A stretch of 64,000 nucleotides of DNA from an uncultured archaeon (lineage in GTDB: Archaea; Asgardarchaeota; Lokiarchaeia; Sigyniarchaeales; SOKP01): assembly GCA_964632315.1 (NCBI GenBank), contig CAZWEM010000018.1, positions 1 through 64,000 on the forward strand, read 5' to 3'. Under the pieces are notes generated by a model, which saw only the letters and a program-made list of their open reading frames with translations, searched no databases and was not told where the DNA came from. The stretch's first letter is position 1. Each line of letters begins with the position of its first letter. Both the position numbers and the translations under genes were made by a program. This document shows, in pieces, positions 17,984 through 22,187 of the stretch.

Positions 17984-18511
17984 ATGACGGAACCCGATTA
18001 TGTAATCAAGATTTGTTTGCTTGGGGAGGCAAATGTTGGAAAAACATCACTTGTTTATCGCTTTATTGAAAATAAATTCAGAGATAATTATAAAAGTACA
18101 CTTGGAGTTAATCTCCTTAAAAAAGACTTGAATATTGAAGATTACGGCGGAGTAGCTGCCACAATCTGGGATCTAGGTGGTCAAGAAAGTTTTAGATCCC
18201 TCCGAAAACTCTACTTAGAGGGAGCGAATGGTGCTCTAGTTATCTTTGATTGGACTCAAAAAGAAAGCTTCCTTAAATTAGAAAGTTGGATACAAGATTT
18301 TAGATTAGAGAGAGAAAATGAACCAATTTTATTGATCGGAAATAAAGATGATTTAAAAGATAAGGAAAAGGTATCTAAAGATGAAGCATTAGAATTAGCA
18401 CGTCGTTATAAGCTAAAATTTCTTTCTACCTCAGCTAAAACAGGTTCTAATGTAGAAGAAGCATTTAATACTGTTACTAAGACGATTTTAAAATCCCAAT
18501 TAGCTAAATAG
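17984..18511 (+). CDS. Rab-like small GTPase
   Basis: GEANVGKT, STLG, WDLGGQE, GNKDD, STSAK. Confidence 0.93.
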   Translation: MTEPDYVIKICLLGEANVGKTSLVYRFIENKFRDNYKSTLGVNLLKKDLNIEDYGGVAATIWDLGGQESFRSLRKLYLEGANGALVIFDWTQKESFLKLESWIQDFRLERENEPILLIGNKDDLKDKEKVSKDEALELARRYKLKFLSTSAKTGSNVEEAFNTVTKTILKSQLAK

Positions 18512-18709: not shown

Positions 18710-19396
18710 ATGCCTGAAGAAGAAGATGATCATGAAGAAGAGGAGGAGGAGGAAGAAGAAGAACTCTCCTCTGAAGAAGGTTTAGATTATAAAATTGAAA
18801 ATGTTGTTGCAACCGTTACTGTTGAAATCACTGAAAAAATTGATTTAAATCAAATTGCAAGAAAGCATGCTGAAGTAGAATATAATCCAGAGAGATTTCC
18901 TGGATTAGTCATGCGAATTGAGAAACCCAGAGCAACTATTCTCATATTTTCCACCGGAAAAATGGTTGTTACTGGATTACGTAAAGCGTCTGAGGCTGAA
19001 AGAGTGGTTGATAAAGTTGTTAAAAATATTCGAAAAGCAGGAATAAAATTATCTAATCCCGAGATCACCATTCAAAACATAGAAAACTTAATATATCATT
19101 AAGTTTATGGATTTGCGAGTGGCGATCTTCATACGAACATCGATCTAAATATGGCTGCAATTGTTATGGAGTATGCCATGTATGAACCAGAAGTGTTTCC
19201 CGGGTTAATTTATAGAATGCAAGAACCTAAGACTGTATTTTTAATATTTTCAACTGGTAGAATAGTATGCACCGGAGCCAAGCAAAAAGAAATTGTAAGA
19301 GATGCCGTAAAAAAACTAAACCAACAAGTACGTGATCTAGGAGTTGCAAAAAAGGAGCTTATAGATAGCGATTACCAAGATATCACGTTTATTTAA
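18710..19396 (+). CDS. tbp: TATA-box-binding protein, join(18710..19082,19113..19396), 218 aa after removal of a 30-nt intron
   Basis: Repeat 1: IENVVAT...YNPERFPGL...[12 protein letters not shown]. Repeat 2: IQNI|VASGDL...[13 protein letters not shown]...[14 protein letters not shown]. Both halves are in one frame, separated by 30 extra nt containing TAA. Confidence 0.9.
19083..19112 (+). other. Putative bulge-helix-bulge (tRNA-type) mRNA intron in tbp
   Basis: aaaacttaatatatcattaagtttatggat; 9-bp intron stem 19084-92/19098-106; 3-nt bulges 19081-83 and 19111-13; central helix 19077-80/19107-10; exon-exon helix 19061-76/19114-29; excision gives ATA G|TT GCG = I-V-A. Confidence 0.85.
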
Positions 19397-19940: not shown

Positions 19941-22187
19941 TTGCATTTAATGACAAAAACGATTTTGATGAATAATAAATTAATGAAGGTCACAGTCATT
20001 ATATTATCTTTTATTATACTAAGTATTTTAACCTCCAATATCAGTTTAAACAAAAATGAAGAAAGAAACAATAGCGAACTATTTTCAGAGCCTTTAGCAT
20101 CAAGTTCAAAATCGTTTATTTCTATCTGGGATACAACCAAATCTGGTGTTAGTAGTAGCAATCAAGTTCATTTACCTTTATTATCGAGTGGAAAATATAA
20201 TTTTACGGTTAATTGGGGAGATGGAAATAATGACACAATTACGATCTGGAATCAAGGTTCTGTAACCCATACATATGCTACCCAGGGTATTTATACCATA
20301 AAAATATTAGGAAAGATTATTGGTTGGCAATTTAATTACCAAGGAGATAGGTTGAAAATACTTGAAATTCAGCAATTTGGATGTCTACAATTAGGAAATT
20401 TGGGAAGTTATTTTTATGGATGCCGTAATTTAGCACTCACCGCTACTGATAGTTTGAATTTGAATGGAACCACAAATTTAAGTTTAATGTTCGGAAACTG
20501 CCATAATCTTGGCAATAGTGGTGATTTTAATAAGTGGAATACGTCAGGAGTCACAGATATGTTCCAAATGTTTTATAACGCTCAAACCTTCAATTGTTCC
20601 ATAGATAACTGGGATGTCTCAAGTGTAACGACAATGGCAAGAATGTTTGTTGATGCTGACTCATTTAACCAACCCATTGGCAACTGGGTTGTTTCGAGTG
20701 TGATAGATATGAATTGCATGTTTTGCGGTGCTTATTCTTTCAATCAACCCATTGGCAACTGGGATGTCTCAAATGTGAGAGATATGTTTGAAATGTTTGG
20801 TGATACAATCTCTTTTAATCAACCCTTAAGTAAATGGGATGTATCGAATGTGACAGAAATGCAGGGTATGTTCGATCAAGCATTATCATTCAATCAACCC
20901 ATTGGTGACTGGGATGTTTCTAGTGTGACATCAATGGCTTTGATGTTTGGATGGGCTCTTTCATTCAATCAACCCATTGGCAATTGGGATGTATCTAGTG
21001 TAACAACAATGGCTTCAATGTTTGCTGGAGCATCCTCATTTAATCAACCGATTGACGATTGGAATGTCTCAAATGTAATAGATATGAGCAGTATGTTTGA
21101 TGATGCTGGTTCATTTAATCAATCTCTTGGATCGTGGAATGTTTCGAAAGTAATAACGATGAATAGAATGTTCTATGGAGCCTCCTCATTCAACCAACCC
21201 ATTGACTTATGGGATGTTTCGAGTGTAACGGATATGTTTGAAATGTTTTCTAGTGCCTCCTCATTCGACCAATCTATTGGTGATTGGGATGTCTCGAGCG
21301 TGGGAGATATGAGAAACATGTTTTATGGAATAGCTTTATCAACACCAAATTATGATAATCTTCTACTGGGTTGGTCGCAGTTATTGCTAAAAAATGAAGT
21401 AATTTTTGATGGTGGTGATTCCAAATATAGTAATGCTGCCAAAACCGCGCGGCAATACATTATAACTACTTTTGATTGGACGATCATTGATGGTGGTTTA
21501 ATATCACCGGGAGAATTCACCTTATTTTCAAATGCAGGCACTCCCGATATTGATGGACGTTTTAATCTTACCTGGACACCATCTTCAAGAGCAAGTAATT
21601 ATTCAGTGTATCAAAATTCGAGTTACATTACTCAAGTTAATGAAAACTTATCTCTCTTGACTGCTGAAATTACAAATTTAACCCACATGCTCACTGGCTA
21701 TAATGAAGGAACTTACTACTTTATCATTGTAGCAAATAATGATTTTGATTACACTCTTTCTAATTGTCTCACTGTTGTAGTGAGATTACCACCAGGAGAA
21801 TTCGAATTATCATCAGATTCAGGCACTCCCGACCCCGACGGATGTTTCAATCTTACCTGGACACCATCTTCAAGAGCAAATAATTATTCCGTTTACCTAC
21901 ATTCAAGTTATATTACCGAGCTAAATGCTAGTGTTTCTCTCTTAGGATCTGGAATTACTGATCTGAATTTAAAATTGATTGGTTACGTTGATGGTGCTTA
22001 TTATTTTATGATTGTTGCCTATAATAACTATGGTATAAATCATTCAAACTGTATTAATGTGATTGTAATGAAAACTCCAACACAACAACAACCTCTCCCC
22101 GCAATTCAAGGATACGATCTCTACTTGCTTATAGGAATAGCGAGCGTGATAACGACTTTAATGCTTCGAAAACGAGTCAAATCCTAA
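19941..22187 (+). CDS. BspA-family (DUF285) repeat surface protein with PKD-like domain, two FnIII-like modules and Loki-CTERM-like anchor
   Basis: N-terminal hydrophobic helix; VNWGDG...THTY; 25-aa FNQPIGxWDVSxVxxMxxMF repeats; duplicated PGEFxLx[18 protein letters not shown]; C-terminal IQGY-TM-RKRVK. Confidence 0.85.
20525..21330 (+). repeat. About 11 tandem 75-bp (25-aa) DUF285 repeats
   Basis: Recurrent ttcaatcaacccattggcaactgggatgtctc-like DNA. Confidence 0.85.

What the first reader, a model, noticed from the sequence alone, without database searches (positions are those of the whole stretch)
18710..19396. Splicing as a possible switch on TBP supply (HAC1/XBP1-like logic)
Seen in sequence: because the intron carries the stop, unspliced mRNA encodes a 130-aa single-repeat half-TBP. 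The BHB is imperfect, with an A.G in the central helix and two mismatches beside the 3' bulge, which could make cleavage inefficient or tunable. Established: eukaryotic HAC1/XBP1 transcription-factor mRNAs are activated by non-spliceosomal cleavage and tRNA-ligase joining. Inference: TBP level may be coupled to EndA/RtcB activity or pre-tRNA load, and other Asgard genes annotated as split or pseudogenes may hide similar introns.
Basis: inference. Interest (0 to 1): 0.7.

Follow-up and report, generated by a model that had tools for sequence, protein, structure and literature searches.

The report
tRNA-type mini-intron in TBP gene
The only full TATA-binding-protein gene of this Loki-type Asgard archaeon is broken by a 30-base insert shaped like the introns that the tRNA-splicing enzyme removes, and it is one of many such mini-introns in this genome's protein genes rather than a special switch.

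Summary
Observation confirmed. The TBP gene (18710-19396, +) carries a 30-nt insert (19083-19112) with an in-frame TAA. It is absent from 21 orthologous copies in 19 congeners and from 80 further relatives. It is present in DNA contigs of two runs. Its ends fit a relaxed bulge-helix-bulge (BHB) motif. Excision rebuilds the conserved Val codon and a 218-aa two-repeat TBP.

The genome has a two-subunit EndA with the broad-specificity loop lysine, and one RtcB.

The switch idea is not supported. A motif-free comparison with 1.6 Mb of a relative found about ten more 30-32-nt inserts of the same architecture. They lie in EF-2, UvrA, acetyl-CoA synthetase (five), a molybdopterin oxidoreductase, a GH38 mannosidase and a Mg-chelatase-like gene. 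The relative has its own set.

The A.G mismatch recurs in the class. So the TBP intron is most likely an ordinary, constitutively spliced member of a spreading mini-intron class.

No RNA data exist. This scan noted similar mini-introns before in other archaeal genomes (rtcB, carB, fwdB). I found no paper describing them beyond cbf5.

The parts
18710..19082 (+). TBP exon 1: acidic N-terminal tail, repeat 1 and the first base (G) of the Val codon
   Evidence: ORF and translation. Pfam PF00352 at aa 26-109, E 1.3e-28. Boundary from alignment with 21 intron-less copies.
19083..19112 (+). 30-nt BHB-type mini-intron (phase 1). It is built as 1 nt, a 9-nt stem arm, a 5-nt loop, a 9-nt stem arm, a 4-nt H strand and 2 bulge nt.
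   Evidence: Unique 30-nt gap against 21 orthologous copies. Geometry. Present in DNA contigs. No second copy in the genome; the best exact match is 15 nt.
19100..19102 (+). In-frame TAA inside the intron. It ends the 130-aa product of unspliced mRNA.
19061..19076 (+). 5' strand of the exon-exon outer helix h. It pairs with 19114-19129.
   Evidence: 13 of 16 positions pair here, against 8-11 of 16 in the 21 intron-less copies. The helix is also in the MFE fold.
19077..19080 (+). 5' strand of the central helix H (exon). It pairs with 19107-19110 as A.G, C-G, A-U, U-A.
19081..19083 (+). 5' three-base bulge (AGA). The predicted cut is after 19082.
   Evidence: Geometry. The cut position is the only one that rebuilds the conserved Val codon.
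19084..19106 (+). Intron hairpin h': 9 perfect pairs (19084-19092 with 19098-19106) and a loop at 19093-19097
19107..19110 (+). 3' strand of the central helix H (intron)
19111..19113 (+). 3' three-base bulge (AUU). The predicted cut is after 19112.
19114..19129 (+). 3' strand of the exon-exon outer helix h
19113..19396 (+). TBP exon 2: the last two bases of the Val codon, repeat 2 and the stop codon
   Evidence: Pfam PF00352 on the downstream frame, E 7.9e-25. The spliced frame is 218 aa with 0 stops.

Best explanation
The 30-nt insert is a tRNA-type (bulge-helix-bulge) mini-intron in the pre-mRNA of the organism's only two-repeat TBP gene.

Proposed mechanism:
- In the transcript the exon flanks pair with each other (19061-19076 with 19114-19129).
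- The intron forms a 9-bp hairpin.
- Four exon bases (19077-19080) pair with four intron bases (19107-19110). This exposes two 3-nt bulges.
- The two-subunit splicing endonuclease EndA cuts after 19082 and after 19112.
- RtcB joins the exons. This rebuilds the split Val codon (G + TT) and gives an mRNA for a 218-aa TBP.

Shown here: the insert, its uniqueness, its geometry, the restored frame, the enzymes, and the existence of a whole class of such inserts.

Inferred: cleavage and ligation in vivo, and that splicing is constitutive.

The intron is one recently gained member of a class of 30-32-nt introns. The shared architecture is 1 nt, a 9-bp stem, a 5-7-nt loop, a 4-nt guide strand and 2 nt. 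Members are scattered through protein-coding genes of this Promethearchaeota family. It is probably a tolerated selfish or neutral element, not a regulatory device.
For: 1. The boundaries come from comparison, not from structure. A 30-nt gap at 19083-19112 separates this gene from 21 intron-less copies. It is the only excision that gives the Val present in all 21 copies.

2. At those boundaries the BHB geometry holds: H 3/4 plus A.G, h' 9/9, h 13/16. The random-site probability is 0.0058.

3. This is the only two-repeat TBP in a 99.5%-complete genome. The other PF00352 hit is a single repeat inside a 418-aa Lrp-like protein.

4. The enzymes are present. EndA alpha (207 aa) matches A. pernix 3p1z_B best, and K44 and R46 of the CSL are aligned. 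There is also an EndA beta and one RtcB (PMC3241643, PMC5829648 passages).

5. Class evidence from a motif-free census against 1.6 Mb of relative G217:
- It found 6 stop-containing in-frame inserts, 5 of them exactly 30 nt.
- 4 of those 5 pass H>=3/4 and h'>=7/9.
- Among stop-free inserts of 24-36 nt, 5 of 64 pass. Two of these lie in the ACS gene and I read them as introns.
- Two 32-nt frameshifting inserts have H 4/4 at the best-aligning register.

6. Removing five inserts from the ACS gene turns a 322-aa longest frame with 19 stops into 532 aa with 0 stops, 444/518 identical to the relative. For EF-2 the frame goes from 694 to 755 aa.

7. The EF-2 intron sits at the same site in 4 of 42 genus genomes. 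53/56 cells are paired, against 41-62% when partners are slid. Variation falls in 4/5 loop columns against 2/25 other intron columns.

8. Relative G217 has its own 30-nt stop-containing BHB inserts and a 28-nt one in rpL11. G282 has a stop-free 30-nt insert of the same architecture at another TBP site.
Against: - There is no RNA evidence. None of the 22 listed runs is RNA, so cleavage, ligation and efficiency are unproven.
- The central helix has only three standard pairs.
- A competing register is as stable or more so. Register CAUA/UAUG has H 4/4 and would excise 28 nt and shift the frame. Its energy is -19.9 kcal/mol, against -20.1 for the in-frame register and -21.0 for the MFE. P(A19081-U19106) is 0.56 against 0.38 for A19084-U19106.
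- The EF-2 comparison shows no double compensatory change.
- Motif-only genome scans show no enrichment over controls, so the class rests on the comparative census.
- That census covers only 48% of one relative.
- One ACS insert has a weak motif (H all G-U, h' 3/9). The UvrA insert has only 6 of 9 h' pairs and fails the h'>=7/9 threshold.
- Four split-gene candidates have no clean BHB.
- The genome is a MAG with 8.6% contamination.
Confidence: 0.8

Rival explanations
1. Regulated switch. Splicing of the TBP pre-mRNA is deliberately inefficient or condition-dependent. TBP supply would then follow EndA/RtcB activity or pre-tRNA load, as HAC1/XBP1 follow IRE1.
For: - Unspliced mRNA would give a 130-aa half-TBP.
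- Two near-isoenergetic BHB registers compete, and only one is in frame.
- TBP is single-copy here, whereas many congeners have 2-4 matches.
Against: - The intron occurs in this genome alone among the 42 genomes of its genus searched, so no conserved regulatory role is visible.
- The same architecture, including A.G/G.A mismatches and weak exon helices, occurs in about ten unrelated genes.
- Alternative 4/4 registers exist for 5 of the 11 introns.
- No dedicated sensor nuclease was found. The KEN-domain search found nothing, but the control was silent too, so this is weak.
- The cut sites lie in 3-nt bulges, not in the twin 7-nt loops of HAC1/XBP1 (recalled).
Confidence: 0.1
2. Unspliced disabling insertion or assembly artefact. 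The insert is a small palindromic insertion that has killed the gene (pseudogene, or a minority allele captured by the MAG).
For: - The insert is unique to this genome.
- Read depth is low, 2.5-2.9.
- MAG contamination is 8.6%.
- The hairpin alone could come from a mutational process.
Against: - The gene is the only two-repeat TBP.
- Both exons are 96% identical in protein to relatives, with no other defect.
- The insert is in contigs of two runs and no intron-less contig of this strain was seen.
- The exon/intron pairing fits the BHB geometry at the independently defined boundaries.
- The same kind of insert sits in EF-2 and, in a single-contig relative, in rpL11.
Confidence: 0.05
3. Translational recoding. 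Ribosomes read through the TAA or hop over the 30 nt, in the manner of T4 gene 60.
For: A stop codon and a stable hairpin lie close after the last conserved codon, as in gene 60 (recalled).
Against: - The conserved Val codon is split by the insert (G ... TT). Only joining of nucleic acid can rebuild it.
- Read-through would put 10 foreign residues into the first strand of repeat 2.
- Class members of 32 and 28 nt shift the frame, and some hold two stops.
Confidence: 0.02

Closest known systems
BHB intron in cbf5 pre-mRNA of Desulfurococcales and Sulfolobales (Watanabe 2002; Yoshinari 2006; Yokobori 2009, PMC2738675; passages read)
   Same: A short intron inside a protein-coding gene, with a relaxed BHB-like motif. 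It is removed by the hetero-oligomeric EndA that also serves tRNA and rRNA. It shows lineage-specific gain and loss.
   Different: The gene (TBP) and the phylum (Asgard) differ. Here the intron is not a one-gene curiosity: about eleven inserts of one fixed 30-32-nt architecture lie in at least seven genes of one genome, up to five in a single gene. Splicing of cbf5 was shown experimentally; here it was not.
Non-canonical and multiple tRNA introns of Asgard archaea and Thermoproteales (bioRxiv 10.64898/2026.10.13.758758, passages; PMC11291895, passages)
   Same: The same predicted enzyme and motif, repeated lineage-specific gains, an unknown route of arrival, and sites where the exon can contribute half the motif. 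This genome is also intron-rich in tRNAs: ARAGORN calls introns in 18 of the 29 tRNA genes it finds.
   Different: Those papers treat tRNA genes only. The preprint has 0 occurrences of 'mRNA', and PMC11291895 mentions introns only for tRNA. In a protein gene the exon half of the motif must be made from coding sequence.
HAC1/XBP1 unconventional splicing (IRE1 plus tRNA ligase or RtcB)
   Same: Non-spliceosomal endonuclease cuts and RtcB-type ligation of a transcription-factor mRNA. Intron removal changes the protein that is made.
   Different: No stress-sensing nuclease, a different RNA motif, no conservation and no evidence of regulation. The resemblance is in chemistry only.
SOS splicing of DNA-transposon inserts from animal mRNAs (PMC12779559; abstract seen in the search listing only)
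   Same: Inserts are recognised by base-pairing of their ends and removed from mRNA independently of the spliceosome, which rescues the host gene. RtcB is named 106 times in that paper (listing).
   Different: That system works in animals on transposon inverted repeats hundreds of bases long. Here the insert is 30 nt, the BHB geometry is defined, and the tRNA endonuclease is the predicted nuclease.

Membership tests
Archaeal BHB intron (EndA/RtcB substrate) | [quoted passage not shown] | tested here: met
   Bulges at 19081-19083 and 19111-19113. The helix between them has 3 standard pairs plus A.G, which is the relaxed form. A.G/G.A accounts for all 4 H mismatches among the 11 class members.
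Archaeal BHB intron (EndA/RtcB substrate) | Flanking helices: h' in the intron and h between the exons | tested here: met
   h' has 9/9 pairs. h has 13/16, with 2 mismatches after the first pair.
Archaeal BHB intron (EndA/RtcB substrate) | Cuts after the second bulge base give a functional junction | tested here: met
   Cuts after 19082 and 19112 give the Val codon and the gap-free sequence of all 21 intron-less copies. The resulting frame is 218 aa. The cut rule itself is recalled. It agrees with the one ARAGORN tRNA intron that has a strict BHB.
Archaeal BHB intron (EndA/RtcB substrate) | The host encodes a splicing endonuclease able to cut relaxed motifs, and an RtcB ligase | tested here: met
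   Two EndA paralogues are present. The alpha has aligned CSL K44/R46 equivalents. One RtcB is present.
Archaeal BHB intron (EndA/RtcB substrate) | Excision and exon ligation seen in RNA | not testable with these tools
   No RNA run holds the stretch. Only DNA contigs could be laid.
HAC1/XBP1-type regulated unconventional splicing | A dedicated stress-activated nuclease (IRE1 kinase-KEN RNase) | tested here: inconclusive
   PF06479 has no match in the genome, but the control genomes were silent too.
HAC1/XBP1-type regulated unconventional splicing | Splice sites in the loops of twin stem-loops | tested here: not met
   The cut sites lie in 3-nt bulges of one BHB. The HAC1/XBP1 motif is recalled, not taken from a call.
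HAC1/XBP1-type regulated unconventional splicing | A condition-dependent spliced/unspliced ratio | not testable with these tools
   No RNA data.
Programmed translational bypass (T4 gene 60 type) | Matching take-off and landing codons, with the product colinear with the mRNA flanks | tested here: not met
   The conserved Val codon is split as G / TT across the insert. A hop cannot rebuild it.
Multi-copy mobile element (MITE-like) | Further copies of the same sequence in the genome | tested here: not met
   blastn-short finds no second copy; the best exact match is 15 nt. Class members share their shape, not their sequence.

The most novel reading that the evidence does not exclude
Loki-type Asgard archaea carry an actively turning-over population of uniform roughly 30-nt 'cassette' introns. 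Each has a 9-bp stem, a 5-nt loop and a 4-nt guide strand that pairs with the upstream exon.

These introns invade protein-coding genes, including core ones such as TBP, EF-2 and rpL11, and are removed by the tRNA-splicing machinery. That would be a prokaryotic, spliceosome-free counterpart of intron invasion in the closest relatives of eukaryotes. The fixed size points to a dedicated route of insertion, for example reverse splicing guided by the 4-nt strand.

In TBP, competition between an in-frame 30-nt register and a frameshifting 28-nt register could make output sensitive to splicing conditions.
Probability: 0.35. Interest if true: 0.88.

Novelty: new variant of a known kind. Interest (0 to 1): 0.7.

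Why it matters
Introns removed by the tRNA-splicing enzyme are textbook features of archaeal tRNA and rRNA genes. In protein genes, the papers I found describe them only for cbf5 of Crenarchaeota.

If splicing is confirmed, several things follow:
- An Asgard archaeon depends on RNA splicing to make its general transcription factor, its translocation factor and several enzymes. One gene carries five introns.
- Gene callers will report such genes as split or as pseudogenes, which distorts metabolic reconstructions of Asgard MAGs.
- The uniform 30-nt architecture and the patchy, species-level distribution make intron gain directly observable in the closest prokaryotic relatives of eukaryotes. That bears on how host genes tolerate intron invasion.

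The specific switch idea adds little until RNA data exist.

Tried and rejected
RNA evidence:
- The look-up of sequencing runs listed 22 runs and no RNA holder.
- Laying contigs from four runs showed the insert in DNA only.

Motif-first genome scans had no power:
- BHB plus ORF restoration gave 825 (strict) and 993 (relaxed) hits, against 810-838 and 978-1073 with the 3' cut shifted by 1-2 nt.
- The length profile of strong BHB hairpins was flat, about 240 per length and 257 at 30 nt.
- The class-specific pattern gave 238 hits at 30 nt against 181-239 at other lengths.
- With an ORF filter it gave 4 stop-containing hits at 30 nt against 1, 0 and 1 at 33, 36 and 39 nt. The four were TBP, EF-2, one new hit on C41 and one low-complexity hit on C3.

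Other negative or uninformative checks:
- Rfam and ARAGORN found nothing in the window.
- Scanning ARAGORN tRNA calls for a strict BHB was uninformative; only tRNA-Val agreed.
- Four split-HSP candidates gave no clean BHB at alignment-consistent boundaries and are left open. They are a thiolase-like gene at C1 47196-47270, a gene on C39, an E2-like gene on C3 and a gene on C10.
- The 33-nt stop-containing insert on C43 failed the BHB test.
- The stop-free 10-aa inserts show no excess over 9- and 11-aa ones: 12 against 17 and 18.
- The EF-2 intron alignment gave no two-sided compensatory change.

Rejected readings: a split two-gene TBP, read-through, bypass, and a multi-copy mobile element. For the split-gene reading, the first in-frame start after the stop is ATG 19151, which would drop the first strand of repeat 2.

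Full report
**What is there**

The region 18710-19396 (+) is a TATA-binding-protein gene. The first frame runs for 130 codons and ends ...QNIENLIYH at TAA 19100-19102. The same frame continues open after the stop. Pfam finds TBP repeat 1 before the stop (aa 26-109, E 1.3e-28) and repeat 2 after it (E 7.9e-25).

A search of the whole assembly (4.45 Mb, 119 contigs, 99.5% complete, 8.6% contamination) with PF00352 finds three hits. Two are the repeats of this gene. The third is a single TBP repeat on C16. That one lies inside a 418-aa protein whose sequence looks Lrp/AsnC-like by eye; no family search was run on it. So this is the only canonical TBP gene.

**The insert is defined by comparison, not by folding**

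A DNA search of 41 genomes (G000 and 40 relatives) matched in 39. I took the 19 best loci, all from congeners. They hold 21 orthologous copies, because two genomes have tandem pairs.

- tblastn puts the two halves one codon apart in all 21 copies. In the window they are 33 nt apart.
- MAFFT places a single 30-nt gap at 19083-19112.
- Exon 1 ends ...ATAG and exon 2 starts TTGCG. The insert therefore splits a Val codon (G / TT) that all 21 copies have.
- Shifting the 30-nt window by one base gives Phe or Asp instead, so the boundaries are unique.

With an intact relative's TBP as query, 374 of 400 Asgard genomes matched. This included all 41 other genomes of the genus. Among the 150 listed matches only this gene has an internal stop; 523 weaker matches were not listed. 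None of the 80 best TBP loci in the species-representative collection has an insert. Their record titles place the lineage in Promethearchaeota/Promethearchaeia.

The insert is not an assembly slip. A 151-nt contig of run X4 spans 19061-19211 without a difference, and an X1 contig covers 19098-19284. Depth is low (2.5-2.9), and one of these runs may be the source sample.

**Geometry**

Take the archaeal rule of a cut after the second base of each 3-nt bulge. This rule is recalled; it agrees with the one tRNA intron that ARAGORN and a strict BHB search both call. The comparative boundaries then imply:

| Element | Coordinates | Content |
|---|---|---|
| Bulge 1 | 19081-19083 | AGA |
| Central helix H | 19077-19080 with 19107-19110 | A.G, C-G, A-U, U-A |
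| Intron stem h' | 19084-19092 with 19098-19106 | 9 perfect pairs |
| Loop | 19093-19097 | 5 nt |
| Bulge 2 | 19111-19113 | AUU |
| Exon-exon helix h | 19061-19076 with 19114-19129 | 13 of 16 positions pair; two mismatches after the first pair |

As a chance check I placed the same 30 nt at 200,000 random genome sites. H>=3/4 together with h>=7/9 occurred in 0.58% of sites.

The exon helix is largely pre-existing. The 21 intron-less copies already pair at 8-11 of 16 positions, and the intron-bearing gene has the most, 13.

**Enzymes**

- The genome has two EndA paralogues.
- The 207-aa one has the catalytic Tyr/His/Lys context. It matches the A. pernix catalytic subunit best (3p1z_B, E 7.7e-34). 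The Crenarchaea-specific loop is aligned, including the equivalents of K44 and R46.
- K44 was shown to be needed for broad substrate specificity (PMC3241643, abstract and passages).
- The 205-aa paralogue lacks the His, read by eye from the translation, and looks like the structural subunit.
- Asgard archaea were reported to have the (alpha-beta)2 type with this loop (PMC5829648, passages).
- One RtcB gene is present and uninterrupted.

**The decisive turn: the TBP intron is not alone**

Motif-first scans of the genome were useless because the background is huge. I therefore ran a motif-free census.

*Method.* I fetched 1.6 Mb (48%) of G217, a single-contig genome of another genus in the same family. 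I translated its 2074 ORFs of at least 90 aa and searched them against this genome.

*In-frame inserts.* In 1631 retained HSPs (466,890 columns) there are six in-frame inserts that contain a stop. Five are exactly 30 nt and one is 33 nt. I scored each at alignment-consistent boundaries with the test H>=3/4 and h'>=7/9:

| Insert type | Length (nt) | Pass / total |
|---|---|---|
| Stop-containing | 30 | 4 / 5 |
| Stop-containing | 33 | 0 / 1 |
| Stop-free | 24 | 0 / 14 |
| Stop-free | 27 | 3 / 16 |
| Stop-free | 30 | 2 / 13 |
| Stop-free | 33 | 0 / 17 |
| Stop-free | 36 | 0 / 4 |

- The fifth 30-nt stop-containing insert has H 3/4 and six contiguous stem pairs.
- Both stop-free 30-nt passes lie in one gene.

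*Frameshifting inserts.* There were 12 split-HSP pairs. I examined six of them in detail, and two have high-identity flanks and H 4/4 at the best-aligning register. Both inserts are 32 nt. Four others gave no clean motif.

*Host genes, named from the intact G217 orthologues*: EF-2, UvrA, acetyl-CoA synthetase, a molybdopterin oxidoreductase, a GH38 alpha-mannosidase and a Mg-chelatase-like protein.

*Acetyl-CoA synthetase and EF-2.* The acetyl-CoA synthetase gene holds five inserts: one of 32 nt and four of 30 nt, one of them with a weak motif. Removing them changes the longest frame from 322 aa (19 stops) to 532 aa with no stop. The result is 444/518 identical to the relative. Removing the EF-2 insert gives a 755-aa frame aligned in one block.

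*Shared plan.* All eleven inserts, TBP included, share one plan:
- one base;
- a 9-position stem (six members pair at 8-9 of the 9 positions);
- a 5-nt loop (7 nt in the 32-nt forms);
- a 4-nt strand that pairs with the exon bases just upstream of bulge 1;
- two bulge bases.

Nine are 30 nt and two are 32 nt. H is 4/4 in seven and 3/4 in four, and all four mismatches are A.G or G.A. The sequences themselves are unrelated. The TBP insert has no second copy in the genome.

**Relatives**

- The reverse census used 5219 ORFs and kept 2082 HSPs. It shows that G217 has its own stop-containing 30-nt inserts with the same geometry: in a GGLGPTFDD-motif gene, in a gene carrying the DGNRRWA motif (read by eye as undecaprenyl-diphosphate synthase; no family search was run) and in a duplicated gene. 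It also has a 28-nt frameshifting insert in ribosomal protein L11.
- G282, of another genus, has a stop-free 30-nt insert of the same architecture at a different TBP site. Its removal gives a gap-free alignment.
- The EF-2 insert lies at the same site in 4 of 42 genus genomes.
- In those four EF-2 introns, 53 of 56 cells pair, against 41-62% when the partners are slid. Variation falls in 4 of 5 loop columns and in 2 of the 25 other intron columns. There is no two-sided compensatory change.

**How it most likely works**

Shown:
- the insert and its uniqueness;
- the BHB-compatible geometry at independently defined ends;
- the restored frames;
- the enzymes;
- a class of like inserts with species-level presence and absence.

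Inferred:
- EndA cuts after 19082 and 19112, and RtcB joins the exons;
- the 30-nt intron is released;
- splicing is constitutive;
- the intron is a recent, tolerated gain, being found in this genome alone among the 42 of its genus searched.

**The switch hypothesis**

Nothing I could test supports it.

- The 'defects' of the motif are class features.
- The intron is not conserved.
- Like introns sit in unrelated genes.
- I found no IRE1-type nuclease domain, though that search had no positive control.

One point stays open in its favour. A second register (H = 19078-19081/19106-19109, four standard pairs) would excise 28 nt and shift the frame, and it is as stable as the in-frame one or more so. 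The energies are -19.9 against -20.1 kcal/mol, with an MFE of -21.0. The discriminating pair probabilities are 0.56 against 0.38. Five of the eleven introns have such an alternative register. The enzyme must therefore choose by something other than pair count. The 9-bp stem plan fits only the in-frame register.

**What is known**

Splicing of a protein-gene transcript by EndA is established for cbf5 of Crenarchaeota, with relaxed motifs and a link to the hetero-oligomeric enzyme (PMC2738675, passages). Asgard tRNA genes are heavily interrupted (PMC11291895; bioRxiv 10.64898/2026.10.13.758758, passages). Neither text treats protein genes.

Six full-text searches found no paper on a TBP intron or on multiple BHB introns in Asgard protein genes. 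Subscription journals and supplements were not covered.

Earlier notes of this scan (unchecked) report similar mini-introns in other archaeal genomes, in rtcB, carB and fwdB, and a three-intron tRNA-Leu in this genome.

**Verdict**

- Observation: confirmed.
- Interpretation: partly supported. It is an intron, and there are more of them; there is no evidence for a switch.
- Novelty: a new variant of a known kind.
- Main weakness: no RNA evidence.

Noticed in passing
G000:C25, + coordinates 135-164, 328-357, 433-462, 572-601, 788-819 (gene on the - strand, cut by the contig end): The acetyl-CoA synthetase gene has five short inserts (four of 30 nt, one of 32 nt). Removing them gives one open 532-aa frame that is 86% identical to the relative. 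One insert (328-357) has only a weak BHB.
   Followed up: yes
G000:C25 29359-29388 (-); L191, L192, L193: The EF-2 gene has a 30-nt stop-containing BHB insert before the DEEQERGITI motif. The same site is occupied in G015, G016 and G264 but not in the other genus genomes listed.
   Followed up: yes
L027 (G282:C130), about 965-994 of the locus: A second TBP gene, in another genus, carries a stop-free 30-nt insert of the same architecture after IVCTGT. It is flanked by a CTAAG direct repeat. The other four TBP copies of that genus that were listed lack it.
   Followed up: partly
L087 9381-9408; L101; L106; L047 and L065 (G217): The single-contig relative G217 has its own mini-introns. There is a 28-nt frameshifting insert in ribosomal protein L11. 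There are 30-nt stop-containing inserts in a GGLGPTFDD-motif gene, a DGNRRWA-motif gene (prenyl-diphosphate synthase type, named by eye) and a duplicated gene with the identical insert in both copies.
   Followed up: partly
G000:C1 47196-47270 (+); G000:C3 12807-12917 (-); G000:C39 6548-6610 (-): A thiolase-like gene (90% identical flanks), an E2 ubiquitin-conjugating-like gene and a third gene are interrupted by 55-65-nt frameshifting stretches. No clean single BHB fits them. They may be double introns or true lesions.
   Followed up: partly
G000:C41, - strand, strand coordinate 18623 (30 nt): A further stop-containing 30-nt insert of the class pattern lies between long open frames (148 and 847 codons). 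It came from the pattern-plus-ORF scan and was not checked against a relative.
   Followed up: no
G000:C16, L028 1641-2897 (-): A 418-aa protein has a single TBP repeat set between two regions that look Lrp/AsnC-like by eye (no family search run). It is an unusual fusion of a half-TBP with ligand-sensing regulator domains.
   Followed up: no
whole genome G000: ARAGORN finds only 29 tRNA genes in a 99.5%-complete genome and calls introns in 18 of them. Many tRNA genes are probably hidden by multiple introns.
   Followed up: no
window 18710-18780: The TBP starts with a very acidic tail ([18 protein letters not shown]...), which varies in length among congeners.
   Followed up: no
window 17984-18511 (+) and 19941-22187 (+): TBP is flanked upstream by a 175-aa small GTPase of Rab/Ras type. 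Downstream lies a 748-aa protein made of many ~24-aa repeats ([14 protein letters not shown]...) with a C-terminal membrane anchor.
   Followed up: no
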